In this document: positions 16,414 through 52,762 of the stretch, piece after piece
Position numbering within the stretch: position 1 is the first letter of the stretch
Layout: each line of letters opens with the position of its first letter
Source of the DNA: the human T2T-CHM13v2.0 reference genome, Homo sapiens
Length of the DNA: 64,000 bases
Assembly: GCF_009914755.1 (NCBI RefSeq)
Contig: NC_060926.1
Reading direction: 5' to 3' (one strand)
The notes under the pieces: generated by a model
The model's input: only the letters and a program-made list of their open reading frames with translations
Told to the model about the DNA's origin: nothing
Databases searched by the model: none
Program-made: the position numbers and the translations under genes

Positions 16414-16453
<40 letters not shown>
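16205..16453 (-). mobile_element. Old L1M 3'-end fragment followed by a (TA)n(TG)n(TA)n microsatellite (16403-16453)
   Basis: TTTTGAAATAACTTTAGATTT...AAAATTGCAAAAATA...CCATATACCC motif; dinucleotide runs. Confidence 0.6.
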
Positions 16454-23686: not shown

Positions 23687-24389
<703 letters not shown>

Positions 24390-25677
24390 TAGAAGCTTCT
24401 GACAAAGAGCTACCCTTCTGTGCATGATAGATTAGAAACTTGCAAACTCCAAAGATGGGAGGGCATGGAATTCAAGAGGGTGGGGATCAATAAATATCAG
24501 AGTCTTTATTCAGACTCAGTAGGGAAACAACCTTTAAGGTCAAGAAGTCACCAGATCTTAAAACATGCCCTGGTGTTCCCACAGTGGCAGGGAGCCTGAA
24601 GGTGCAGGGTGGCAGAGGGGGGCCCAGGGTGGTGGCCTTGGCCAGGGAATCTCTAGATGTGAAAATTGCTCTGGCAGCCCCAGGCTTGCCCTTTGCTTGG
24701 GTCCTGAACACTCAGCATATTACACTCAGGGAGCATGAGCCGCTTCCTTCATTCTGCAGGGGACAGTTGCCTTCCCAGGTACCTGGCCTGAAATCCTGAG
24801 TGCTGAGGAAGGGCATGGCTGCTGGACAGGCGTCATGGTTGTACCAGGTCCCAGGGAGACAGCTGTCATGGCTTATGCTATAGGTCGCCTGAGCCCCCAG
24901 CTTCCACCCAGGATGGCAAACTGTAGCAAGGACCCCACCAGTAAACAGGACAACAGCGATCATCTCCTTGAAGGCAAACATGGGGCCCAAACATGCCAGG
25001 CTCAAAGGGTCTCCTGTTTGACTCTCAAGCCCCGGCCAGGCCAAGGCCATCTCCATCTTTACAGATGAGAAGCCTGGAGCTTGCAGAGCTAAACACCTGT
25101 TCCAGCACAGTTGTAAGGCACAGAACTGGGACTGGTGCCCAGCCCTGGCTGTGACTCCTCGTCCAGCAGCCCACACCCTCCTCCTAGTGTCCCAAGTTCT
25201 CCACCATCCTTCCCCCAGGAGGACAGGCCGCCCCTTGCCCTCTGTACTCACATTCTGCATGAACTCACAGAAAGGTCACCTCCCTCCCTGTGCTCAGGTG
25301 GCAGCCTGGCTTCCTGACGGTGTGTCATCCTCAGGCCAGCCATCCCCAGAATAGGGGCCAAAAGGCACCTGCCGACCTGGCCATCGGGGAATAATTTAAA
25401 GTAACCCCAGAGAGGGGTTACCAGAAGTCAAGTGTCCACAGCAAACCTGAAAACTCTTTTTTACATTTTATATTGTTACTGGAAGGGGCTCTGGCCTGCA
25501 AGCCCTGGGGCAGGAACCTCTCACCAACCTGGGATGCAAGAGCTACACGGGGCCTGGGTTACCCAAAAATCTGATGTTTTGAGCTACAGTGCTGCACACT
25601 AGGGGGCCACATCATGGTTTATAAGACCCCACCTAGACATTATCTTGTCTTGAGATGTGTTATGAAAATGGGAGGAA

Positions 25678-25978
25678 GGGCCGGGTGCAGTGGCTCATGC
25701 CTGTAATCCCAGCACTTTCAGAGGCTGAGGCAGGCAGATCACATGAGGTCAGGAGTTTGAGACCAGCCTGGCCAACATGGTGAAACTCTGTCTCTAATAA
25801 AAATATATGAATTAGCTGGGTGCGTGACGCTTGCCTATAGTACCAGCTACTTGGGAGGCTGAGGCACGAGAATTGCTTGAACCTGAGAGGCGGAGGTTGC
25901 AGTGAGCTGAGATTGTGCCACTGCACCCCAGTCTGGGCGATAGAGTGAGACTCCATCTCAAAAAAAAAAAAAAAAAAA
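25678..25978 (+). mobile_element. Alu (S-type)
   Basis: Alu consensus with poly(A). Confidence 0.93.
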
Positions 25979-26425
25979 GGATATGGGAGGAGGGAAGGGG
26001 AAGAGAGAGGAGTGGGGAACCTCTAGCCAAGCCAAGGTTCTGGGGAAGGAATGAAGGGAGGGTGGGCAGGCATGCATGGTCCTAGACTGAGCTGGGTATA
26101 GGGAGATCCTGGCTGTGGCTGGGCTCAGTTTGCCTTTTCTGGCATTGCCAGGGCCTTGGAGGTAGAAGGCAGAGGCACTGCAAGAGGACAGCTGTGGTGT
26201 GGGGTTGCCTGGTGCTCCCTACAGGTTAGCATCCCTGGGATTTAGGAGGCAGGGGCTGATCAGATTGGGTCTACAGCCAAGTGTGCTGTCTCCCTCCTGG
26301 GGCAGAGCAGCCGACCAAGGGGTCAGTGAGAAATCTACCTGAAGTTGGCCGGTCCCTAGAACCCTCCAGCCAGACATTCTCCTGCTTTCGGCAGGGTGCC
26401 TGGGAGGCCAAGTTATTAATTTTCA

Positions 26426-29400
26426 GTGAGAATTCTCACCATCTGGATAGAACTCTCACAATCTGGATAGAATTCTCATTCTCTGGATAGAACTCTCAAT
26501 ATCTATCTGGATATAATTGTCGCCCTCTGAATAGAACTCTCACTATCTCAATACAATTCTCACCATCTAGATAGAACTCTCACTATCTGCATAGAATTCT
26601 CACTCTCTGTATATAACTCTCACTATCTATCGAGATAGAATACTCACTCTCTGGATAGAACTCTCACTATCTGGATAGAATTCTCACTCTCTGGATAGAT
26701 CTCTTACTGTCTATCTGGATAGAATTCTCACTCTGGGGACAGAACTCTCACTATCTATCTGGATGGAATTCTCTCCCTCTGCATAGGACTGTCACTCTCT
26801 GGATAGAATTCTCACCATCTGGATAGAACTCCCACTATCTGGAAAGAATTCTCAGTCTTTAGTTAGAACTCTCGCTATCTTTGTGGATACAGTTCTCACC
26901 CTCCAGAGAGAACTCTCACTATCTATCTAGATAGAATTATCACTCTCTGGATAGAAATCTCACTATCTGTCTGGATAGAATTCTCACCATCAGGATAGAA
27001 CTCTCACTGTCTGGATAAAATTCTCACCATCGGGATAGAACTCTCACTATCTAGATAGAATTCTCACTCTCTGGATAGAACTCTCACCATCTAAATATAA
27101 TTCTCACTCTCAGGATAGAACTCTCACTATCTATCTGGATGGGATTCTCCCTCTATGGATAGAACTCTCAGTGTATATCTGGATAGAATTCTCACTCACT
27201 GTATAGAACTCTCACTATCTGTCTGGATAGAATTCTCACCATGTGTATTGATCTCTCACTCTCGGGATAGAATTATAACTCTCTGGATAGAACTCTCACT
27301 ATCTATCTGGATAGAATTCTTACCATCTGGATAGAACTCTCACTATCTGAATAGAATTCTCACTCTCTGGATAGAACTCTCACTTTCTAGCTTGCTAGAA
27401 TTCTCACCCTCTGGATACAGTTCTAACTATCTGTATAGAATTCTCACACTCTGGGTAGAACTCCCACTATGTATCTGGATAGAGTTCTCACTTTCTGGAT
27501 AGAACTCTCACTATCTATCTGAATAGAATTCTCACCCTATGGGTAGAACTCTGACTATCTGTCTGGATAGAATTCTCTCCATCCTGACAGAACTCTCAAT
27601 ATCTGGATGGAATTCTCACTCTCTGGATAGAACTCTCACTCTCTTTGTGGATAGAACTCTCACTCCCTGTCTGGATAGAACTCTCACACCCTGTCTGGAT
27701 AGAACTCTCACTCCCTGTCTGGATAGAACTCTCACTCTCTAGATAGAACTGTTAATAACTGGATAGAATTTTCACCATCTGGATAGAACTCTCACTATCT
27801 GGATAGAACTCTCACCATGTGTATAAAACTCTCACTGTGTGGGAAGAGAACTCTCACTTTCTGGATAGAAATCTCACTTTCTATCTGGATAGAACTCTCC
27901 CCATGTAGATAGAACTCTCCCTATCTGGATACAATTTTCCCATCTGAATAGAACTCTCTATCCGGATAGAATTCTCACTCTCTGGGTAGAACTCTCTATC
28001 TATCTGGATATAATTCTCACTTTCTGGATAGAACTCTCACTATCTATCTGGATGGAATTCTCACCATCTGGAAGAAGTTTCACTATCTGGATAGAATTCT
28101 CACTCTAGATAAAACTCTCACTATCTATCTGGATAGAATTCTCACCCTCTGGATAGAACGCTCACTATCTATCTGGATAGAATTCTCACTCTCTGGATAA
28201 AACTCTCACTATCTGTCTGGTAGAATTCTCACCATCTGGATAGAATTCTCACTATCTGGATAGAATTCTTACTTTCTGGATAGAACTCTCAGTGTCTTTC
28301 TGGATAGAATTCTCACCCTCTGGATAGAACTCGCACTATCTACCTGGATAGAAGTCTCACTCTCTGGATATAACTCTCACTAACTGTCTGGATAGAATTC
28401 TCACTATCTGCATAGAATTCTATCTGTCTGGTTAGAATTTTCACTCTCTAGATAGAACTCTCACTATCTATCTGGATAGAATTCTCACTCTCTGGATAGA
28501 ACTCTCACTATCTATCTGGACAGAATTCTCACTCTCTGGATAAAACTCTTAACTATCTGTCTGGATAGAATTCTCACCATCTGGACAGAACTCTCACTAT
28601 CGGTCTGGATAAAATTCTCACCATCTGTGTAGAATTCTCACTATCTGCATAGAATTCTTACTCTCTGGATAGAACTCTCTCGTATTCCTCGATAGAACTC
28701 TGACCATCTGGATAGAACTCTCACTATCTATCTGGATAGAATTCTCATTCTCTGGATAGAACTCTCACTATCTGGATAGAATCCTCACTCTATATAGAAC
28801 TCTCACTATCTCTCTGGATAGAATTCTCACTCTGGAAAGAACCCTCACTATCTATATGGAAAGAATTCTCAACATCTGGATAGAATCCTCACTATCTGGA
28901 TAGAATTCTCACTCTCTCGATAGAACTCTTGCTATCTGTCTGGATAGAATTCTCACCACCTAGATAGAACTCTCAATAAATGGTAGAATTCTTACTCTCT
29001 GGACAAAACTCTCACTATCTTTCAGGATAGAACTCTTACTACCTGGAGAGAACTCTCACTATCTGGATAGAATTCTCAACATCTGAGGATAGATTTCCAA
29101 CTATCTATCTGGATATAATTCCCACTCTGTCGTTAGAACTCTCACTACCTGTCTAGATACAATTTTCACCATCCATGAACAACTCTCACAATCTGTATGG
29201 AATTCGCTATCTCTGGATAGAAGTCTTACTATCAATCTGGATATAATTCTCACTCTCTGGATAGAACTCTCACTATCTGGGTAGATTGCTCACCATCTGG
29301 ATAGAATTCTCACTATCTATCTATAGAATTCTCACTCTCTAGATAGAACTCTCAATATATATCTGGATAGAATTCTTACCATCTGGATAGAACTCTCACT

Positions 29401-32400
29401 ATCTGGAGAGAATTCTCACTCTCTGTGTGGAACTCTCACTATTTATCTGGATAGAATTCTCAACATCTAGATAGAACTCTCACTATTTGTCTGGATAGAG
29501 TTCTCACCATATGGACAGAACTCTCACTATCTGGTTAGAATTCTCACTCTCTGGATAGAACTCTCACTATCTGTCTGGATAGAAATCTCACCATCTGAAT
29601 TGAACTCTCACTAACTGGATAGAATTCTTATTCTCTGGATAAAACTCTCACTATCTTTCTTGATAGAACTCTTACTAACTGGGAGGAACTCTCACTATCT
29701 GGATAGAATTCTCAACATCTGGATAGAATTCTCACTATCTATCTGGATAGAATTCTCTGTCTCTGGATAGAACTCTCACTATATATCTGGACAGAACTCT
29801 CACAATCTGGATAGAATTGTCATTCTCTGAATAGTACTCTCACTATCTATCTCGATAGAATTCTCACCATCTGGATAGAACTCTATCTGTCTGGATAGAC
29901 TACTCACCATTTGGATAGAACTCTATTTTTCTGTATAGAACTCTCACTATCTATCTGGATGGAATTCCCACTCTCTGGATAGAACTTTCACTACCTGTCT
30001 GGATAGATTTCTCACACTCTGGTTAGAACTCTCACTATCTGGATAGAATTCTCACCGTCTGGGTAGAACTCTCACTATCTGGATAGAATTCTCACTCTGG
30101 ATAGAACTCTGACTATCTATTTCAATAGAATTCTCACCCTCTGGATAGAACTCTCACTATCTATCTGGATAGAATTCTCACACTCCGGATAGAACTCTCA
30201 ATATCTATCTAGATAGAACTCTCACTATCTGGATAGAATTCTCACCCTCTGGATACAACTCTCACTGTCTATCTGGATAGAATTCTTAGTCTCTGGATAG
30301 AAGTCTCACTCTCTGTCTGGCTATAATTCTCAAAATCTGGGTGGAACTCTCACTATCTATCTGGATAGAATTCTCACCATCTGGATAGAACTCTCACTAT
30401 CTGTCTGGATAGAACTGTCACTCTCAGAACTTTCTGGATAGAATTCTCACTGTCTGGATAGAATTCTCACCAAATGTCTGGATAGAATTCTCACTCTGTG
30501 GATAGAACTCTGACTGTCTATCTGGATAGAATTCTCTCCCTCTGGATACAACTCTCACTATCTGGATAGAATTCTCACACTCTGGATACAACTCTCACTC
30601 TCTGTCTGGATATAATTCTCACCCTCTGGATAGAATTCTCACTATCTGGATAGAATTCTCGCCATCTGCATGCACGGGATTCTAACTATCTGTCTAGATA
30701 GAATTTTCACCATCTGGATAGCGCTCTTACTATCTGGATAGAATTCTCACTCTGCATAGAACTCTCACTATCTATCTGGATAGAGCTCTTACTATCTGGA
30801 TAGAATTCTCACTCTGCATAGAACTCTCACTATCTATCTGGATAGAATTCTCACTCTCTGGATAGATCTCTCACTATTTGTCTGGAAAGAATTCTCACTC
30901 TGTGGATAGAACTGTCGCTATCAATCTGGATAGAATTCTCACCCTCTGGATAGAACTCTCACTATCTAGAAGGATTTCTCACCATCCAGATAGAACTCTC
31001 ACTATCTGGATAGAATTCTCACTATCTGGATAGAACTCTCACTATCTATCTTGATAGAATTCTCACCCTCTGGATAGCACTCTCACTATATATCTGGATA
31101 GAATTCTCGCTTGCTGGATAAAACTCTCACTATCCGTCTGGATAGAATTCTCACCATCTAGTTAGAACTTTCACTATCTGGATAGAATTCTCACTCTCTG
31201 GATAGAACTCTCACTATCTATCTGGATAGAATTCTCATTCTCTGGATAGATCTCTCATTATCTGTCTGGAGAGAATACTCATTCTCTGGATAGAACTCTC
31301 ACTATCAATGTGGATAGAATTCTCACCCTCTGGACAGAACTCTGAGTATCTGGATAGAATTATCATCCTCTGGATAGAACTCTCACTATCTATCTGGATA
31401 GAATTCTCACCCTCTGGACAGAACTCTGAGTATCTGGATAGAATTATCATCCTCTGGATAGAACTCTCACTATCTGTCTGGATAAAATTCTCACTCTCTG
31501 GATAGAACTCTCACTATCTGTCTGGATAGAATTCTCACCATCTGGATAAAACTCTCACTCTCTGGTAGAATTCTCATGATCTGGATAGAACTCTCACTAT
31601 CTGGATAGAATTCTTACACTCTGGATAGAACTCTCACTATCTTCCTGGACGGAACTCTCACCCTCTGGATAGAACTCTCACTATTTGGATAGAATTCTCA
31701 CTATCTGGATAAAAGTCTCACTCTCTGTTTGGTACAGTTCTCACGATCTGGATAGAACTCTCACTATCTGGATAGAATTCTTACACTCTGGATAGAACTC
31801 TCACTATCTTTCTGGATGGAACTCTCACCCTCTAGATAGAACTCTCACTATCTATCTGGTTAGAATTCTCACTCTCTCGATTGAAGTCTCACTATCTGGA
31901 TAGAATTCTCACCATCTGCAGAGAACTCTCACTGTCTATCTCGATAAAACTCTCACTACCTATCTGGATAGAACTCTCGCTATCTGGATAGAATTGTCAC
32001 CATCTGGGTAGAACTCTGACAATCTCTCTGGATAGAATTCTCACCCTCTGGATGGAACTCTCACTATCTGGATAGAATTCTTACTCTCTGGATAGAACTC
32101 TCACTATCTGCTGTATAGAATTCTCACCCTCTGGATAGAACTGTCACTATCTGTCTGTATAGAATTCTCACCCTCTGGATAGAACTCTAACAATCTGGAT
32201 AGAATTCTCACTCTCTGCATAGAACTCTCACTGTCTATCTGGATAGAATTCTCACTCTCTGGATAGAACTCTCACTATATATCTGGATATAATTCTCACT
32301 CTCTGGATAGAACTCTCACTATCCGGATAGAATTCTCACCATCTGGTTAGAATTATCACTATCTATCGGGATAGAATTCTCACTCTCTGGATAGAACCCT

Positions 32401-35400
32401 CACTATCTATATGGAAATAACTCTCACCATCTGGGTAGAATTCTCCCTATCTAGATAGAATTCTCACTGTCTACATAGAGCTCTCGCTATCTGTCTGGAT
32501 AGAATTCTCACCATCTAGATAGAACTCTCACTGACTGGATAGAATTCTTACTCTCTGGATAAACATCTCACTATCTTTCTTGATAGAACTCTTACTACTT
32601 GGAAAGAATGCTCACTATCTGTATAGAATTCTAACCATCTGGGTAGAATTCTCACTATCTATCTGGATAGAAGTCTCACTATCTATTTGGATAGAATTCT
32701 CATTCTCTGGATAGATCTCTCACTATCTGTCTGGATCGTATTCCCATTCTGTGGATAGAACTCTCACTATCAATGCGGATAGAATTCTCACCATCTGGAT
32801 AGAACTCTCACTATCTATCTGGATAGAATTCTCACTCTCTGGATAAAACTCTATCTGTCTGGATAGAATTCTCAGCATCTGGATAAAACTCTCCCTGTCT
32901 GTCTGGTAGAATTCTCACCATCTGGATAGAACTCTCATTATCTGGATAGAATTCTTACTCTCTGGATAGAACTCTCACTATCTTTCTGGATAGAACTATC
33001 ACCCTCTGGATAGAACTCTCACAATCTGGATAGAATTCTCACTCCCCAGATAGTGGACACTATGTCTCACTATCCGGATAGTGGACATAATTCTCACTAT
33101 CCGGATAGAAATTTCACCATCTGCATAGAACTCTCACTACCGGGATAGAATTCTCACTCTCTGGGTAGAACTCTCACTATCTATCTGGATAGAATTCTCA
33201 CCATCTGCATTGAAATCTCACTATCTATCTGGATAGAATTATCACTCTCTGGATAGAACTCTCACTATCTACCTCGATATAATTCTCACTCTCTGGATAG
33301 AACTAGCACTATGTGAATAGAATTCTTACTCTCTGGATAGAACTCTCGCTATCTGTCTGGATAGAATTCTCACCATCTAGATAGAACTCTCACTAACTGG
33401 ATAGAATTCTTACTCTCTTGGTAAAAATCTCACTATCTTTCTGGATAGAACTCTTACTACCTGGAAAGAACTCTCAGTATCTGGCTAGATTTCTCACCAT
33501 CTGGGTAGAATTCTCACTATCTATCTTGATAGAATTCTCACTCTTTGGATAGAACTCTCACTATCTGTCTGGATAGAATTCTCAGCATCTGGATAGAACT
33601 CTCACTATCTGGGTAGTATTCTCACTCTCTTGGTAGAACTCTCACTATCTATCTGGATAGAATTCTCACAATCTGGATAGAAGTCTTACTGTGTATCTGG
33701 ATAGAATTTTCACTCTCTGGATAGAACTCTCACTATCTATATGGAGAGAATTATCACCAACTGTATAGAACTCTCACTATCTGAATAGAATTCTCACTCT
33801 CTGGATAGAATTCTCGCTATCTGTCTGGATAGAATTCTCACCATCTAGATAGAACTCTCACTAACTGGATAGAATTCTTACTCTGAATAAAACTCTCACT
33901 ATGTTTCTGGATAGAACTCTTACTACCTGGAAACAACTCTCACTATATGGATAGTATTCTCACTATCTGGATAGAATTCTCACCTTCTAACTGGATAGAA
34001 TAGAATTCTCACTCTCTGGATAGAACTCTCACTATCTATCTGGATAGAATTCTCACCATCTGGATAGAACTCTCACGATCTGGGTAGAATTCTAAGTCTC
34101 TTGGTAGAACTCTCACTATCTCTCTGTGTAGAATTCTGATAATCTGGTTAGCACTCTTACTAACTGTCTGGATAGAATTCTCACTCTCTGGATAGAACTC
34201 TCACTCTCTGTCTAGGTAGAATTTTCACCATCTGGAAACAACTCTTACAATCTGGATAGGATTCTCACTCTCTGGATAGAACTCTTACTATCAATCTGGA
34301 TAGAATTCTCACTGTCTGTATAGAACTCTCACTATCTGGATAGATTTCTCACCATCTGGATAGAATTCTCACTCTGTGGGTAGAACTCTTACTATCTATC
34401 TTGATAGGGTTCTCACCATATGGATAGAACTCTCACTATCTATCTGGATAGAATTCTCACTCTCTGGATATAACTCTCACTATCTGGATAGAATTTTCAC
34501 TCTCTGGATATAACTCTCACTACCTATCTGGATATAATTCTCACTCTCTGGATAGCACTCACTATCTGGATAGAATTCTCACCATCGGGATAGAATTCTC
34601 ACTATATACCTAGATAGAATTCTCACAATCTGGATAGAACTCTCACTATCTATCTGGATAGAATTCTCACTATCTGGATAGAACTCTCACTATCTGCATA
34701 GAATTCTCACTCTCTAGATAGAACTCTCGCTATTCATCTAGAGAGAATTCCCATCTGAATAGTACTCTCACTAACTGGATAGAATTCCTACTCTCTGGAT
34801 AAAACTCTCACTATCTTTCCGGATAGAACTCTTAGTATCTGGAAAGAACTGTCACTATCTGGATAGAATTCTCACCCTCTGGATAGAACTCTCACTATCT
34901 ATCTGGATAGAATTCTATGTCTCTGGATAGAATTCTCACTATCTGTCAGGATAAAATTCTCACCATCTGGATAGAACTCTCACTGTCTATCTTGATAGAA
35001 TTCTCACCATCTGGATAGAACTCTCACTATCTGTCTGGATAGAATACTCACCATTTGGATAGAACTCTCACTATCTGTCTGGATAGAACTCTTACTATCT
35101 ATCTGGATGGAATTCTCACTCTGTGGATAGGACTCTCACTACCTGTCTGGATAGAATTCTCACTCTCTGGATAGAACTCTCACTATCTGTCTAGGTAGAA
35201 TTCTCACTCTCTGGATAGAACTCTATTTGTCTAGGTAGAATTTTCACCGTCCGGAAACATCTCTCACAATCTGGATAGGATTCTCACTCTGTAGGTAGAA
35301 CTCTTACTGTCAATCTGGATATAATTCTCACTCTCTGGGTAGAACTCTCACTATCTGGATAGATTTGTCACCATCTGCATAGAATTCTCACTATCTGTCT

Positions 35401-37283
35401 GGATAGAATTCTCACTCTCTGGGTAGAACTCTCACTATCTATCTGGATAGAATTCCCACCATCTGGATAGAATTCTTACTGTGTGGATAAAATACTCACT
35501 CTCTGGATAGAACTCTCACTCTCTCTATATATAGAATTCCCACGATCTGGATAGAACTTTCACTATCTGGATAGAATTCTCACTCTGTGGGTAGAACTCT
35601 CACTATCTATTTTCATAGAATTCTCACCATATGGATAGAATTCTCACTATCTGTCTGGATAGAATTTTCACTCTCTGGATGGAACCCTCACTACCTATCT
35701 GGATATAATTCTCACTCTCTGGATAGCACTCACTATCTGGATAGAATTCTCACCATCTGAATAGAACTGTCAGTATCTGAATAGAATTCTCACTCTCTGG
35801 ATAGAACTCTATCTATCTAGATAGAATTCTCACCCTCTGGATAGATCTCTCACCATCTGTCTGGGTAGAATTCTCTCCATCTGTATAGAACTCTAACTAT
35901 CTGGATAGAATTCTCACCATCTGCATGGAACTCTCACTATCTGTCTAGGTAGAATTCTCACTATGTGGATAGAGCTCTCACTATCTGGATGGAATTCTCA
36001 ATCTCTGCATAGAACTCTCACTATCTATCTGGATAGAATTCCCACCCTCTAGGTAGAACTCTCACTATCTGGATAGAATTCTCACCGTCTGCATGGAACT
36101 GTCACTATCTGGATAGAATTCTCACTCTCTGTATAAAACTCTCACTATCTATCTAGATAGAATACTCACTATCTGGATAGAACTCTCACTGTCTATCTGG
36201 ACGGAATTCTCACTCTCTGGATACAACTCTCACTATCTGGATAGAATTGTAACTCTCTGCATATAACTCTCACTATCTATCTAGATAGAATTCTCACTCT
36301 GTGGATAGAACTCTGACTATGTATCTGGATAGAATTCTCACCCTCTGGATACAACTCTCACTATCTGGATAGAATTCTCACTCTCTGGATAGAACTCCCA
36401 CTATCTGTCTGGATAGAATTCTCACCCTCTGGATAGAACGCTCACTGTCTGGATAGAATTCTCAGCATCTGCATGGAACTCTCACTATCTGTCTATGTAG
36501 AATTCTCAACATCTGGATAGAGCTCTCACTATCTAGATAGAATTCTCACCATCTGCATGGAACTCTCACTATCTGTCTAGGTACAATTCTCATCATCTGC
36601 TTAGAGCTCTCACTATCTGGATAGAATTCTCAGTCTCTGCATAGAACTGTCACTATCTATCTGGATAGAATTCTCACCCTCTGGATAGAACTCTTACTAT
36701 CTGGATAGAATTCTCACATCTGCATGGAACTCTCACTATCTGTCTGGATAGAATTCTTACCATCTGGATAGAGCTCTCAGTATCTGGATAGAATTCTCAG
36801 TCTCTGCATAGCACTCTCACTATCTGTCTGGATAGAATTCTCACTCTATGGATAGAACTCTGACTATCTATCTGGATAGAATTCTCACCCTCTAGATAGA
36901 ACTCTCACTATCTGGATAGAATTCTCACCCTCTAGATAGAACTCTCACTATCTGGATAGAATTCTCCCTACTGATAGAACTCTCACTCTCTCTCTGGATA
37001 GAATTCTCACTGTCTGGATAGAACTCTCAATATCTATGTGGATAGAACTCTCACTGTCTATCTGGATAGAATTCTTAATCTCTGGATAGAAGTCTCACTA
37101 TCAGTCTGGATAGAATTCTCACCATCTGGATAGAACTTTCACTATCTGTCTAGATAGATCTCTCACTATCTATCTGGATAGAATTCTCACTCTCTGGATA
37201 GAATTCTCACTATCTGTCTCGATAGAATGCTCACTCTGTGGATAGAACTCTGACTATCTATCTGGATAGAATTCTCACCCTCT
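26426..37283. repeat. Large tandem array (left arm) of 20/24-bp units CTGGATAGAA(C/T)TCTCAC(T/C)(A/C)T(+CTAT/CTGT) in ABCG8 intron 6
   Basis: Continuous periodic sequence, EcoRI site in roughly alternate units, TAG in nearly every unit (ORF desert). Confidence 0.97.
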
Positions 37284-38691
<1,408 letters not shown>

Positions 38692-41600
38692 AGAATTCTC
38701 ACCCTCTGGAGAGAACTCTCACTATCTGGATAAAATTCTCACTCTAGATAGAACTCTCACTCTCTATCTGGATAGAATTCTCACCATCTGGATAGAACTC
38801 TCACTATCTAGATAGAATTCTCACCCTCTGGATAGAACTGTCACTATCTGGATAGAATTGTCACCATCTGCATGGAACTCTCACTATCTGTCCAGATAGA
38901 ATTCTCACCATCTGGATAGAGCTCTCACTGTCTGGATAGAATTCTCAATCTCTGCATAGAACTCTCACTGTCTGGATAGAATTCTCAGTCTCTGTATAGA
39001 ACTCTCACTATCTGTCTGGATAGAATTCTCACTCTGTGGATAGAACTCTCCGTATCAATCTGGATAGAATTCTCACCCTCTGGATAGAACTGTCACTATC
39101 TGGAAGGAATTCTCACCATCTGGATAGAACTGTCACTATCTGGATAGAATTCTCACTCTCTAGATAGAATTCTCACTATCTTTCTCAATAGAATTCTCAC
39201 CCTCTGGATAGAACTCTCACTATCTCTCTGGATAGAATTCTGACTCGCTGGATAAAACTCTCACTATCCGTTTGGATAGAATTCTCACCATCTGGATAGA
39301 ACTCTCACTATCTGGATAGAATGCTCACTCTCTGGATAGAACTCTCACTATCAATCTGGATAGAATTCTCACTCTCTGGATAGAGCTCTCACTATCTATC
39401 TCGATATAATTTTCATTCTCTGGATAGATCTCTCACTGTCTGCCTGGATCGAATTCTCATTCTATGGATAGAACTCTCAGTATCAATGTGGATAGAATTC
39501 TCACCCTCTGGATGGAACTGTCACTATCTATCTCAATAGAATTCTCACCCTCTGGATAGACCTCTCACTAGCTATCTGGATAGAATTCTCACTCTCTGGA
39601 TAAAACTCTCACTGTCTGTCTGGATAGAATTCTCACCATCTGGATAAAACTCTCACTATCTGTCTGGTAGAATTCTCACTATCTGGATAGAACTCTCAGT
39701 ATCTGTATAGAATTCTTACTCTCTGGATAGAACTCTCACTATCTTTCTCGATAGAACTGTCACCCTCTGGATAGAATTCGCACTATCTATCTGGATAGAA
39801 TTCTGTCTCTGGATAGAAGTCTCATTATCTGTCTGGATAGAATTCTCACCATCTGCATAGAATATTCACTATCTGTCTGGATAGAATTCTGACCAGCTGG
39901 AGAGAACTCTCACTATCTGGATAGAATAATCATCGTCTGGATAGAACTCTGACTCTCTGTCTGGATAGCACTCTCACTACCTTTCTGGATAGAATTCTCA
40001 CTCTCTGGATACTACTCTCGCTATCTGGATAGAATTCTCAGCATCTGGATATAATTCCCACTATCGATCAGGATAGAATTCTCACTCTGTGGATAGAACT
40101 CTGACAATGTATCTGGATAGAATTGTCACCCTCTGGATAGAACTCTCACTATCTGGGTAGAATTCTCACTCTAGATAGAACTCTCACAATCTTTCAGATA
40201 GAATTCTCCTCCTCTGGATAGAGCTCTCACAGTCTGGATAGAATTCTCACTCTGTGGATAGAACTGTCACTATCTGGATAGAATACTCACCATCTCGATA
40301 GAACTCTCACTGTCTATCTGGATAGACTTCTCGGTCTCTGGATAGAAGTCTCAATGCCTGTCTAGATAGAATTTTCACCATCCGGATACAACTCTCACTA
40401 TCTGGATAGAATTCTCATTCTCTGGATTGATCTCTCACTATCTATCTGGATATAATTCTCACTCTCTGGATAGATCTCTCACTATCTGTCTGGATAGAAT
40501 TCTCACTGTGGGTAGAATTCTCACTATCATTCTGGACATAATTCTTACCCTCTGGGTTGAACTCTCACTATCTGGATAGAATTCTCACCATGTGGGTGGA
40601 ACTCTCACTATCTATCTGGATAGTATTCTCGCTCTCTGGAAAGAACTCTCACTATCTTTCTGGATAGAATTCTTACCCTCTGGATAGAACTCTCACTATC
40701 TGGATAGAATTCTCAACATCTGGATAGAACTCTTACTGTCTATCTGAATAGATTTCTCACTCTCTGGATAGAACTCTCACTATCTATCTGGATAGAATTC
40801 TCACTCTTTGGATGAAACTCTCAGTATCTGTCTGGATAGAATTCTCACCATCTGGATAAAACTCTCACTATCTGTCTGGATAGAATTCTCACCATCTGGA
40901 TAGAACTCTCAGTATCTGGATAGAATTCTTACTCTCTGGATAGAACTCTCACTATCTTTTTGGTTAGAACTGTCACCCTGTGGATAGAAATTTCTCTATC
41001 TATCTGGATAGAATTCTCCCTCTCTGGATAGAAGTCTCATTATCTGTCTGGATAGAATTCTCACCATCTGGATAGAAGTGTCACTATCTGTCTGGATAGA
41101 ATTCTTACCATCTGGAGAGAACTCTCACTATCTGGATAGAATTCTCACCATCTGGCTAGAACCCTCACTATCTGTCTGGATGGAACTCTCACTATCTATG
41201 TAGACAGAATTCTCACTCTCTGGATAGAACTCTCGCTATCTGGATTGAATTTTCACCATCTGGATGGAATTCTCACTGTCGATCACGTTGGAATTCTCAC
41301 TCTGTGGATAGAACTGTGACAATCTATCTGGATAGAATTCTCACCCTCTGGATAGAACTCTCAGTATCTGGATAGAATTCTTACTCTTGATAGAACTCTA
41401 TTTGTCTGCATAGACTTCTCACCATCTGGATAGAACTCTCAGTCTCTGGATAGAATTCTCACTGTCTGGATGGAACTCTCACTACCTGTCTCGATAGAAT
41501 TCTCACCCTCTGGATAGAACTCTCACAATCTGGATAGAATTCTCACTGTCTGGATATAATCCTCACTCTCTGGATAGAACTAGCACTATCTGGGTAGAAT

Positions 41601-42848
41601 TCTCACAATCTGGATAGAATTCTCACTATCTGGATAGAATTCTAACTCTGGATAGAACTCTCACTATCTATATGGAAAGAATTCACTCTCTGGATAGAAT
41701 TCTCACTGTGTATGTTGATGGAATTCTCAGGCTGTGGATATAACTCTCACTATCTATCTGGATAGAATTTTTACTATCTGGATAGAATTCTCACTATCTG
41801 GGTAGTATTCTCACTCTCTGGATAGAACTCTCACTCTCTATCTGGATAGAATTCTCACCCTTTGGATAGAACTCTCACTATCTGTCTGGGTAGAATTCGC
41901 TCCGTCGTAATAGAACTCTCACTATCTGGATGGAATTCTCACTCTCTGGATAGAACTCTCACTATCTGTGTGGATAGAATTCTCACCATCTGCATAGAAC
42001 TCTCACTATATGGGTAGAATTCTGACTCTCTGGATCGAACTCTCACTATCTGTCTGGAAAGAATCCTCACTCTTTGGATAGAACTCTCATTTTCTGTCTG
42101 GATAGAATTTTCACCATCTGGATAGAATCTCACTATCTAGATAGAATTCTCATTCTCTGGATAGAACTCTCACTGTCTATCTGGATAGAACTCTCACTCT
42201 CTGTCTCATTAGATCTCTCACTGTCTGTCTGGATAGAACTCTAACTCTCTGGATAGAACTCTTAATAACTCGATAGAACTTTCACCATCTGGATAGAACT
42301 CTCACCATCTGAATAAAACTCTCACTGTGTGGGAATAGAACTCTCACTCTCTGGATAGAACTCTCACTATCTATCTGGATAGAATTCTTACTCTAGATAG
42401 AACTCTCACTATCTGTCTGGATAGAATTCTCACCATCTGGATCAAACTCTCACTATCTGGATAGAATTCTCACCCTCTGGATAGAACTGTCACTATCTAT
42501 CTGGATAGAACTCTCCCCATCTGGATTGAACTCTCACTATCTGGATAGAATTCTCACCCTCTGGATAGAACTCTCACTTTCTGGATAGAATTCTCACCCT
42601 CTGGATAGAACTCTCACTATCTGGATAGAATTCTCACTCTCTGGATAGAACTCTCACTCTCTGGATAGAACTCTCACTATCTGGATAGAATGCTCACTCT
42701 CTGGATAGAACTCTCACTATCTGGATAGAATTCTCACCCTCTGGATAGAACTGTCACTGTCTATCTGGATAGAACTCTCCCCATCTGGATTGAACTCTCG
42801 CTATCTGGATAGAATTCTCACTCTCTGGATGGAACGCTCACTATCTGG
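38692..42848. repeat. Large tandem array (right arm), same 20/24-bp unit
   Basis: Same unit resumes immediately after the L1 poly(A) and ends about 460 bp before exon 7. Confidence 0.97.
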
Positions 42849-43178
42849 GAGCCTAACTACTCAGCCTCCCCCGACCAGCCCAACTTCTCCCCATGGAGGG
42901 GCACTGAGTCCTCATTAAAGCTTCCTGGACAGCTGGAGTTGGAGCCAGAGCATGACTGTCATGTGGCCCTTGGCTCTGAAGGCTCTTGCTCTGTCCTAAG
43001 ATGTCCTCAAAATGAGCCTGGGTAGTGGGACTTGGGCGGGGCCTCTACTCTTTCCCATTTTTTGATCCACTGCTCTTACCCTGAGGCTTCTGCAGATGTG
43101 GTCAGGCCTGGCAGGGTGAAGGACCAGCCCTTGGGGTCCCTCTGCCTCTCTCTGCTCTGCCCCTTGCTTCATGGCTGA

Positions 43179-43472
<294 letters not shown>

Positions 43473-43493
43473 TAAGGTGGCAGGCGACTCTGA

Positions 43494-43640
<147 letters not shown>

Positions 43641-43770
43641 TAATTATCTGTCATTTTATTACTGAACCCGCCCCCCTGCCCAAGTCTTTGTATATCACAT
43701 TAAGCCCTTTCTATTAAAGTGAATTTAAAGGAGAAAGTGAGAGGTAGAGTCATTTGAAAAAAACAGCATC

Positions 43771-44823
<1,053 letters not shown>

Positions 44824-51803: not shown

Positions 51804-52762
51804 GTGTCACAGGTTCATCTTGTATTTTCCCATCTCAGCCCTGGAATCCGATGTTTCTCCAGAGAATCTGGGTTCCTCTTAGTGGAAAATGGTATTTAGA
51901 AGCCAAGGTTTTGGTGATAAGTATGCTCTTTGCTTGTGGAACATCTCTGCTCCCAGGCTCTCTCAGTGAACAGAGTTAGGGAGTGTGTGTGTGTGTGCGC
52001 GCGCGCGCGCGCATGTGCATACATATACACCTAAGTACACATGAGTTTACTCTGATAACATCCATTTCCAATCCAGCATCACAGAGTTGATCCTAGGTTC
52101 TTCCCTCTTCTCTAATTGTGAGAAACCTGGCTTCCATTACCCTTAGGTTATTTACTCATTTGATTAACCGCCTGCAGGTAAGTAATCTCCCATCTACACT
52201 GCCACGCCTTCTCCTGTATGGACGTCCTGCCTACCCTGCTCAGGCTCTAACTCCCAAGTCCAGCTTTCCCTGAGTCTGCAGCTGTCTTCCTCACACTCCC
52301 GTGGCCCACCACAACTTCCCCCCACCTCCTTGTCACTGTGGTCCCCTAATGGCGTTAGGCCTGAATGAAGAAGGGGGAAGGATGAAGAGGACATTGGTAG
52401 CTTGCCTTAACTCCCCAGGTAATTCTAATGTGCAGTGATTGACAGCCACTAAGATACATCACCTGACTTTGTGAGTTCACCATTCGGTCTGCAATGGGTT
52501 TTGGTAACTCAGTGGCTCTGTATGCCGTGCTGAAGGGGAAAAGGGCAAAGTGCAAAGGCAGGAGGGATGGAGAAAATATAGCAGCTGCCATTTATTTGTG
52601 TTTTTCCTACAGCGGTGGTTCTCCACCCTGGTTGCCCATGCTGGAGCTTTAACAAAAGCCAATGTGGACCCATTGCCCAGAGACTCTGATCCCATGGGTC
52701 TGTTTTGTTTAAAATGCTCTTCAAGGCATTGTGAGGCCAGGAAAACAAAGAACCAAGGCTCT

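What the first reader, a model, noticed from the sequence alone, without database searches (positions are those of the whole stretch)
26426..42848. ~15-kb satellite-like array inside ABCG8 intron 6 whose unit is two overlapping palindromes
Seen: ~10.9 kb + ~4.2 kb of 20/24-bp units (roughly 700 by length), making up most of a 19.1-kb intron. Each unit joins CTATC-TG-GATAG (perfect CTATCTAGATAG in some copies) to AGAATTCT. The unit equals the 24-mer CTATCTAGATAG-TGAG-AATTCTCA, whose tandem array is its own reverse complement, minus four bases (TGAG). The array starts exactly at a perfect 14-bp palindrome, GTGAGAATTCTCAC (26426-26439), that still contains those bases. Inference: the unit arose in place by fold-back/template-switch synthesis from this seed and then amplified. 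It may form cruciforms in DNA or dsRNA in the pre-mRNA. I do not recognise it as a named satellite family.
Basis: partly seen in the sequence, partly recalled or inferred. Interest (0 to 1): 0.85.

Follow-up and report, generated by a model that had tools for sequence, protein, structure and literature searches.

The report
Old intronic minisatellite in ABCG8
Most of ABCG8 intron 6 is a 15-kb, single-locus, one-directional array of about 710 decayed 20/24-bp repeats split by a later L1 insertion; it is already in print, and its short palindromes look incidental.

Summary
The array is real. TRF finds it at 26429-42848. My segmentation gives 710 units: 454 of 20 bp and 207 of 24 bp. The repeating unit is not one 20-mer made of two palindromes. 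It is a 40/44-bp dimer of two alternating subunits, AGAATTC-type and AGAACTC-type.

All units point the same way (TCTCAC 444, GTGAGA 1). The consensus matches its own reverse complement no better than shuffled units do. A palindrome-coverage statistic reaches only about 1-5% of shuffles. DNA hairpins are weak, at -2.9 to -4.0 kcal/mol.

The array is locus-specific in T2T-CHM13 and its flanks are unique. Units sit about 8% from their subtype consensus, and their similarity does not depend on distance, so the array is old and no longer turning over.

A 5'-truncated L1 with a poly-A tail and a 16-bp target-site duplication split the array later. This structure is already published (Ross 2014, PLoS One).

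The 14-bp boundary palindrome exists, but chance can explain it (about 0.005-0.06). Birth in place is supported. The fold-back origin is not supported, but it needs outgroup genomes that I could not reach.

Verdict: an ordinary, already known minisatellite of low interest.

The parts
26426..26439 (.). Perfect 14-nt palindrome GTGAGAATTCTCAC at the left edge. It consists of flank bases GTG followed by the first 11 nt of the first E-type unit.
   Evidence: It is unique in the window. The DNA hairpin is -2.9 kcal/mol and 57 of 200 shuffles fold as well.
26429..37283 (+). Left part of the minisatellite: 513 units, in which a 20-bp E-type subunit alternates with a 20/24-bp C-type subunit (44-bp dimer most common).
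   Evidence: TRF; segmentation and subunit typing.
37268..37283 (+). Left copy of the L1 target-site duplication, AGAATTCTCACCCTCT.
   Evidence: Read directly from the sequence.
37284..38692 (+). 5'-truncated L1 3' end with a poly-A tail, inserted into the array.
   Evidence: The translation matches LINE-1 ORF2p residues 1037-1158 with E 1.1e-79. The genome holds 12,603 candidate copies, and the best 39 other copies are 97% identical. The poly-A tail and the duplication are visible. Ross 2014 also calls it a LINE insertion.
38692..38707 (+). Right copy of the target-site duplication. Its first A cannot be told apart from the poly-A tail.
   Evidence: Read directly from the sequence.
38694..42848 (+). 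Right part of the same minisatellite: 197 units with the same two subunit types. The 40-bp and 44-bp dimers are about equally common.
   Evidence: Unit identity between the two parts (0.83-0.85) equals identity within each part.
26323..26336 (+). Flank copy TCAGTGAGAAATCT of the left-junction 14-mer TCAGTGAGAATTCT (26423-26436), exactly 100 bp upstream. Its meaning is unknown.
   Evidence: About 0.09 such matches are expected per window.

Best explanation
This is an old, single-locus, head-to-tail intronic minisatellite. A ~20-bp motif first became a 40/44-bp dimer of two diverged subunits: E-type AGAATTCTCAC..TCTGGAT and C-type AGAACTCTCACTATC(TATC)TGGAT. That dimer was then amplified to about 15 kb by ordinary tandem-repeat mechanisms, namely replication slippage followed by unequal sister-chromatid or homologue exchange (inferred). 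Amplification then stopped and the units decayed independently by point mutation (shown). A 5'-truncated L1 later inserted into one E-type unit and split the array into 10.9-kb and 4.2-kb parts (shown). The array is transcribed as part of ABCG8 intron 6 and spliced out. It is most likely neutral, and its main effect is to lengthen the intron about five-fold. The short palindromes (AGAATTCT in E-type units, CTATC-TG-GATAG at C-to-E junctions) are real. They are best read as incidental features of the motif, at most a minor aid to early slippage, and not as the generator of the repeat.
For: - Structure: 710 units, and E/C alternation in 541 of 708 neighbour pairs.
- One orientation only: TCTCAC 444 against GTGAGA 1; 536 forward and 0 reverse matches to the 20-mer; 1 minus-strand HSP of 12,917.
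- Locus-specific: genome counts equal window counts within the control level. The DNA search hits only this locus. Flanks are unique.
- Old and not turning over:
  - 471 distinct sequences among the 710 units.
  - Mean identity to subtype consensus is 0.921 over the 642 units with standard lengths, flat along the array.
  - Pairwise identity is the same at 100 bp or less (0.826), beyond 2 kb (0.822) and across the L1 (0.834).
  - For all 49 of 49 300-bp chunks, the best non-self match averages 86.8% and peaks at 92.7%.
  - 1-kb chunks match at 80-87%.
- The L1 came later: it has an intact 16-bp target-site duplication made of a repeat unit, and a poly-A tail; an ORF2p match; and 97% identity to its best genomic copies, against about 8% unit decay.
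- Independent description: Ross 2014 reports a 10.8-kb repeat, a 4.1-kb repeat and a 1.4-kb LINE in the older reference genome (passages read). These sizes match this assembly within rounding.
Against: - The array folds better than composition-matched shuffles. RNA z is -4.4 (0 of 200 shuffles as good) and DNA z is -2.5 (1 of 200). Arrays of the consensus dimer beat arrays of shuffled dimers, with z of -3.1 (0 of 200) and -2.3 (4 of 200). The quasi-palindromes are therefore a real property, not nothing.
- The palindrome-coverage statistic is nominally significant, at 1.4-4.7% of shuffles.
- The left-junction 14-mer recurs 100 bp upstream, where 0.09 matches per window are expected. The simple model does not explain this.
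- A SNP inside the array, rs4952688, is reported to go with 40% lower hepatic ABCG8/ABCG5 expression by an unknown mechanism (review passage). Strict neutrality is therefore not shown.
- The slippage and unequal-exchange mechanism, and the age, are inferred. No outgroup or population data could be examined.
Confidence: 0.8

Rival explanations
1. The unit was created in place by fold-back or template-switch synthesis from the 14-bp palindromic seed, through a self-complementary 24-mer ancestor that lost TGAG. The array can extrude cruciforms or form dsRNA.
For: - The 14-nt perfect palindrome sits exactly at the array edge.
- Read on the minus strand, the flank continues the unit for 13 nt (AGAATTCTCACTG, an existing TG variant).
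- The junction 14-mer recurs 100 bp upstream.
- Palindrome coverage is 18/20, reached by 70 of 5000 shuffles.
- Fold z-scores are -2.3 to -4.4.
- In RNA, CUAUCUGGAUAG is fully self-complementary once G-U pairs are allowed (stems visible).
Against: - None of the 710 units is inverted, and none keeps TGAG.
- The real 24-bp units carry an extra TATC instead.
- Self-complementarity of the consensus is at chance.
- The hypothetical 24-mer array folds at -0.85 kcal/mol per nt. The real array folds at -0.26, no better than other intron sequence at -0.28.
- Hairpins are only -2.9 to -4.0 kcal/mol.
- The longest inverted repeats are 71-81% complementary and lie 182-15,139 nt apart.
- The seed needs only 3-5 chance flank bases.
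Confidence: 0.1
2. The array is a functional cis element. One version is a platform or sink for GATA factors, which regulate ABCG5/ABCG8. Another is a pyrimidine-rich RNA-protein binding tract in the pre-mRNA.
For: - The array holds 369 WGATAR motifs (322 on the minus strand), or 24.6 per kb against 1.6 per kb in the rest of the window.
- GATA4 loss lowers Abcg5/Abcg8 in mouse liver, and GATA4 acts on the human intergenic promoter in HepG2 (passages).
- SNP rs4952688 inside the array is linked to lower expression.
- The sense strand carries 450 YCTCAC and 156 TCTCT motifs.
Against: - Any tandem repeat multiplies whatever motif its unit happens to contain, so enrichment alone is not evidence.
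- The units are decaying freely, about 8% from consensus with no sign of constraint.
- No binding or chromatin data were examined here.
- The SNP association may simply reflect linkage, as Ross 2014 itself notes ('or nearby linked sequence').
Confidence: 0.07
3. The array was imported. It would be the internal tandem repeat of a transposable element, or a copy of a dispersed satellite family.
For: None was found. Very old, highly diverged element fragments in the flanks would escape the BLAST-level searches used.
Against: - There are no extra copies of the unit in the whole assembly beyond control level.
- 444 bp of left flank and 460 bp of right flank are single-copy.
- Rfam finds nothing in 24000-44000.
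- No Dfam or RepeatMasker library was available, so this was not tested against named families.
Confidence: 0.03

Closest known systems
The long ABCG8 intronic compound repeat described by Ross 2014 (PLoS One 9:e101093, PMC4079513)
   Same: It is the same object. The paper describes a 10.8-kb repeat and a 4.1-kb repeat with closely related units, separated by a 1.4-kb LINE insertion, inside an ABCG8 intron, with rs4952688 in the 4.1-kb part (passages read).
   Different: The passages I read give no unit anatomy. They do not mention the E/C dimer, the palindromes, the target-site duplication, the single orientation, the lack of homogenisation or genome-wide uniqueness. The paper's supplementary files were not opened.
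Classical minisatellites / VNTR arrays (10-100-bp units, single locus)
   Same: Unit size is 20-44 bp. The arrangement is head-to-tail, at a single euchromatic locus, with hierarchical unit structure.
   Different: It is unusually long (15 kb, about 710 units) and degenerate. There is no local homogenisation. Copy-number polymorphism, which defines a VNTR, was not testable here.
Palindromic or inverted-repeat DNA that extrudes cruciforms (for example the AT-rich palindromes at translocation breakpoints; recalled, not examined here)
   Same: It contains short perfect palindromes of 8-16 nt.
   Different: Arms are only 4-8 nt, against hundreds of nt in the recalled examples. The array as a whole is strand-asymmetric and not self-complementary.

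Membership tests
Minisatellite (tandem repeat, unit 10-100 bp) | Unit length of 10-100 bp, repeated head to tail. | tested here: met
   TRF periods are 20, 44 and 84. There are 710 units, all in one orientation.
Minisatellite (tandem repeat, unit 10-100 bp) | Single locus, not a dispersed element. | tested here: met
   Genome counts equal window counts within control level. The DNA search returns only this locus.
VNTR (variable number tandem repeat) | Copy number varies between individuals. | not testable with these tools
   Only one assembly is held. Sizes in Ross 2014 for the older reference (10.8, 4.1 and 1.4 kb) match within rounding, and the CNV column of that paper's summary table is blank for ABCG8.
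Satellite DNA family | Many arrays or loci share the unit, typically in heterochromatin. | tested here: not met
   No other array exists in the 3.1-Gb assembly.
Self-complementary (palindromic) tandem array | The array equals its own reverse complement. | tested here: not met
   The best cyclic match to the reverse complement is 12/20, 20/40 and 22/44, which is chance level. TCTCAC occurs 444 times against GTGAGA once. G is 15-16% against C at 24%.
Cruciform-forming inverted repeat | Long, near-perfect arms with a short spacer that give a stable hairpin. | tested here: not met
   The longest perfect palindromes are 14-16 nt, and there are 8 of them in the array. Hairpins are -2.9 to -4.0 kcal/mol with z of -0.7 to -1.5.
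Transposon-derived tandem repeat | The array lies inside a dispersed element whose flanks recur in the genome. | tested here: not met
   Flanks 25985-26428 and 42849-43308 are single-copy. The only dispersed pieces are an Alu 445 bp upstream and the later L1. The searches had BLAST-level sensitivity only.
LINE-1 insertion (the interrupting 1.4 kb) | ORF2/3' end sequence, poly-A tail and target-site duplication. | tested here: met
   The translation matches ORF2p residues 1037-1158 with E 1.1e-79. A poly-A tail and a 16-bp duplication are present. The genome holds 12,603 candidate copies.

The most novel reading that the evidence does not exclude
The array is not inert. With about 370 WGATAR motifs in 15 kb, inside a gene pair that GATA4 regulates, it could act as a lineage-specific GATA-factor platform or sink. 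That would tune ABCG5/ABCG8 expression in liver and gut, and would explain the expression-linked SNP rs4952688 that lies inside it.
Probability: 0.06. Interest if true: 0.6.

Novelty: already known. Interest (0 to 1): 0.17.

Why it matters
ABCG5/ABCG8 controls sterol excretion, and variants at this locus affect LDL cholesterol, gallstones and coronary disease. A 15-kb repeat that fills 79% of one intron hampers short-read mapping, and it carries at least one SNP linked to expression. Knowing that it is an old, stable, single-orientation array helps in interpreting variants there. It is not an active or structure-forming element. As a piece of genome biology it is an ordinary, already recorded minisatellite. 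The palindrome-seed idea adds little unless outgroup genomes support it.

Tried and rejected
- Pfam scan of three reading-frame pieces of the insert gave 0 families. The PDB sequence search then identified L1 ORF2p.
- Rfam at gathering thresholds over 24000-44000 gave 0 matches.
- Paper searches:
  - The unit's 15-mers, both strands, found 0 papers.
  - 'ABCG8'+'VNTR' found 14 papers, none about this array apart from Ross 2014.
  - 'ABCG8'+'tandem repeat'+'intron' found 16 papers, of which only Ross 2014 is relevant.
  - A wider six-term search added nothing on ABCG8.
  - 'rs4952688' found 2 papers.
- Degenerate units beyond the array edges were not found. The local alignment score of the left flank to the consensus is 15 forward (100 of 158 control chunks as good) and 21 reverse (11 of 158). 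The right flank scores 15 in both directions.
- A four-unit higher-order repeat from alternation of E-variants is weak and not significant (365 of 2000 and 1083 of 2000 permutations).
- Recent block duplications are absent. There is only a weak ~1.21-kb periodicity at 82-87% in the right part.
- No primate or mouse genome, Dfam library or population assembly is held.
Full report
**What is there**

TRF reports one tandem array over window 26429-42848. It has period 20 throughout, a stronger 44-bp period in 26429-37283, and a 40-nt consensus in 38692-42848.

A wrap-around alignment to the 20-nt consensus cuts the array into 710 units, 513 left of the interruption and 197 right of it. Of these, 454 are 20 bp and 207 are 24 bp.

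The two parts measure 10,858 and 4,155 bp. The insert is 1,410 bp and intron 6 is 19,107 bp. The repeat is therefore 79% of the intron, or 86% with the insert.

**Anatomy of the unit**

The array is not a run of one 20-mer. Two subunit types alternate:
- E-type, AGAATTCTCAC[TC/CA/CC]TCTGGAT. It is almost always 20 bp.
- C-type, AGAACTCTCACTATC(TATC)TGGAT. It is 20 or 24 bp.

EC or CE neighbours account for 541 of 708 adjacent pairs. E+C dimers are mostly 44 bp (145) or 40 bp (96). The amplified unit was therefore a 40/44-bp dimer.

It is exact in 64 places, plus 7 with the perfect TA centre. The other junction, CTCTCTGGATAGAACTCT, is not palindromic.

GATAGTGAGAATTC never occurs.

**Is it palindromic beyond chance?**

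The array is strongly strand-asymmetric:
- TCTCAC occurs 444 times against GTGAGA once, and G is 15-16% against C at 24%.
- The 20-mer with up to 3 mismatches matches 536 times forward and 0 times reverse.
- Only 1 of 12,917 self-BLAST HSPs is on the minus strand.

The consensus units match their own reverse complement at 12/20, 20/40 and 22/44. Shuffled units do as well in 2341, 2251 and 1793 of 5000 trials. The longest perfect palindrome is 8 nt, which 443-887 of 5000 shuffles reach.

It gives:
- 18/20 for the idealised monomer (70 of 5000 shuffles as high);
- 18/40 for the 40-bp dimer (228 of 5000);
- 19/44 for the 44-bp dimer (235 of 5000).

This is nominal significance for a measure chosen after seeing the data.

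**Folding**

Folding agrees that there is some self-complementarity:
- A real 300-nt stretch gives z of -4.4 as RNA and -2.5 as DNA against dinucleotide shuffles.
- Arrays of the consensus dimer beat arrays of shuffled dimers, with z of -3.1 and -2.3.

This comes from CUAUCUGGAUAG pairing with its neighbour copies, with G-U at the centre, in helices of about 9-10 bp.

In absolute terms the array is not more structured than other sequence:
- It folds at -0.256 kcal/mol per nt.
- DNA hairpins of the seed and of two units are -2.9 to -4.0 kcal/mol, with z of -0.7 to -1.5.
- The 25 longest inverted repeats are only 71-81% complementary and lie 182-15,139 nt apart.
- Only 8 perfect palindromes of 14-16 nt lie in the array.

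Cruciforms and long dsRNA are therefore unlikely.

**The seed**

GTGAGAATTCTCAC at 26426-26439 is real and unique. It consists of three flank bases, GTG, in front of the first unit's AGAATTCTCAC. Inside the array those three bases are GAT in 137 of 173 cases.

By my arithmetic the chance of the palindrome is 1/64 to 1/16. It is about 0.005 if the next two flank bases are also counted as an allowed unit variant. This is suggestive at most.

One thing remains unexplained. The junction 14-mer TCAGTGAGAATTCT recurs with one mismatch exactly 100 bp upstream, at 26323-26336, where 0.09 matches per window are expected. The 100 bp between the two copies does not resemble the unit.

**Origin and spread**

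In the whole T2T-CHM13 assembly the unit exists only here.

| Pattern | Genome (fwd+rev) | Window (fwd+rev) | Control (fwd+rev) |
|---|---|---|---|
| 34-mer, up to 2 mismatches | 113+0 | 113+0 | 0+0 |
| 20-mer, up to 2 mismatches | 343+7 | 339+0 | 4+4 |
| 18-mer, up to 1 mismatch | 439+1 | 434+0 | 1+2 |

A 601-bp piece of the array hits only this locus. The right flank and the 444 bp of left flank are single-copy. Further left lies an Alu at 25700-25980. The repeat was therefore born here and was not imported. No Dfam library was available.

**Age and dynamics**

Several results show an old array that is no longer homogenised:
- 471 of the 710 unit sequences are distinct.
- Mean identity to the subtype consensus is 0.921 over the 642 units of standard length. 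It is flat along the array except for the last 22 units, at 0.965.
- Pairwise identity does not depend on distance. For E-type units it is 0.826 at 100 bp or less, 0.822 beyond 2 kb, and 0.834 between the two parts.
- The best non-self match of each of the 49 300-bp chunks averages 86.8% and peaks at 92.7%.
- 1-kb chunks match at 80-87%.

**The interruption**

The interruption at 37284-38692 is a 5'-truncated L1 on the plus strand:
- Its translation matches LINE-1 ORF2p residues 1037-1158 with E 1.1e-79.
- It ends in poly-A and is flanked by a 16-bp duplication, AGAATTCTCACCCTCT, which is itself a repeat unit.
- It is 97% identical to the 39 best of 12,603 candidate copies in the genome.

The array therefore existed before the L1 arrived, and its units have decayed several times more than the L1 has. 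I infer that the L1 is of hominid age and that the array is of early anthropoid age or older. The rate calibration is recalled and no outgroup was available.

**Prior knowledge**

A review (PMC6995538, one passage) says that the AA genotype of that SNP lowers hepatic ABCG8 and ABCG5 expression by 40%, by an unknown mechanism.

I found no paper that gives the unit sequence or discusses its palindromes. Supplementary files were not opened.

**Function**

The most likely state is neutral intronic DNA. Two leads remain untested.

The first is GATA binding. The array carries 369 WGATAR motifs, or 24.6 per kb against 1.6 per kb elsewhere in the window. GATA4 is a published regulator of ABCG5/ABCG8 (passages).

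The second is RNA-protein binding. The sense RNA is rich in YCUCAC and UCUCU.

Any tandem repeat multiplies whatever motif its unit contains, and the units show no sign of constraint. I give the functional reading about 6-7%.

**Verdict**

It is unsupported on fold-back origin and on structure formation. The object is an ordinary, already published, old minisatellite.

Noticed in passing
window 26323-26336 and 26423-26436: The 14-mer that spans the left array junction (TCAGTGAGAATTCT) has a one-mismatch copy exactly 100 bp upstream in otherwise unique flank. About 0.09 such matches are expected per 64-kb window. The sequence between the two copies is not unit-like.
   Followed up: partly
window 26429-42848 (mostly minus strand): The array holds 369 WGATAR (GATA-factor) motifs, about 15 times the density in the rest of the window. 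ABCG5/ABCG8 are published GATA4 targets. This is a lead only.
   Followed up: partly
window 42357-42811: The last 22 units at the right end are 96.5% identical to their subtype consensus, against 91-94% in every other bin. This may mark a somewhat younger local amplification.
   Followed up: no
window 38975-41919: The right part of the array shows a weak ~1.21-kb periodicity. 1-kb chunks find their best match 1212-1222 bp away at 82-87% identity.
   Followed up: partly
window 25700-25980: An Alu element lies 445 bp upstream of the array. The genome holds 3214 candidate copies, the best at 86-88% identity.
   Followed up: no
window 16432-16453 and 51996-52013: The palindrome scan turned up short (TA)n and (GC)n microsatellites.
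   Followed up: no
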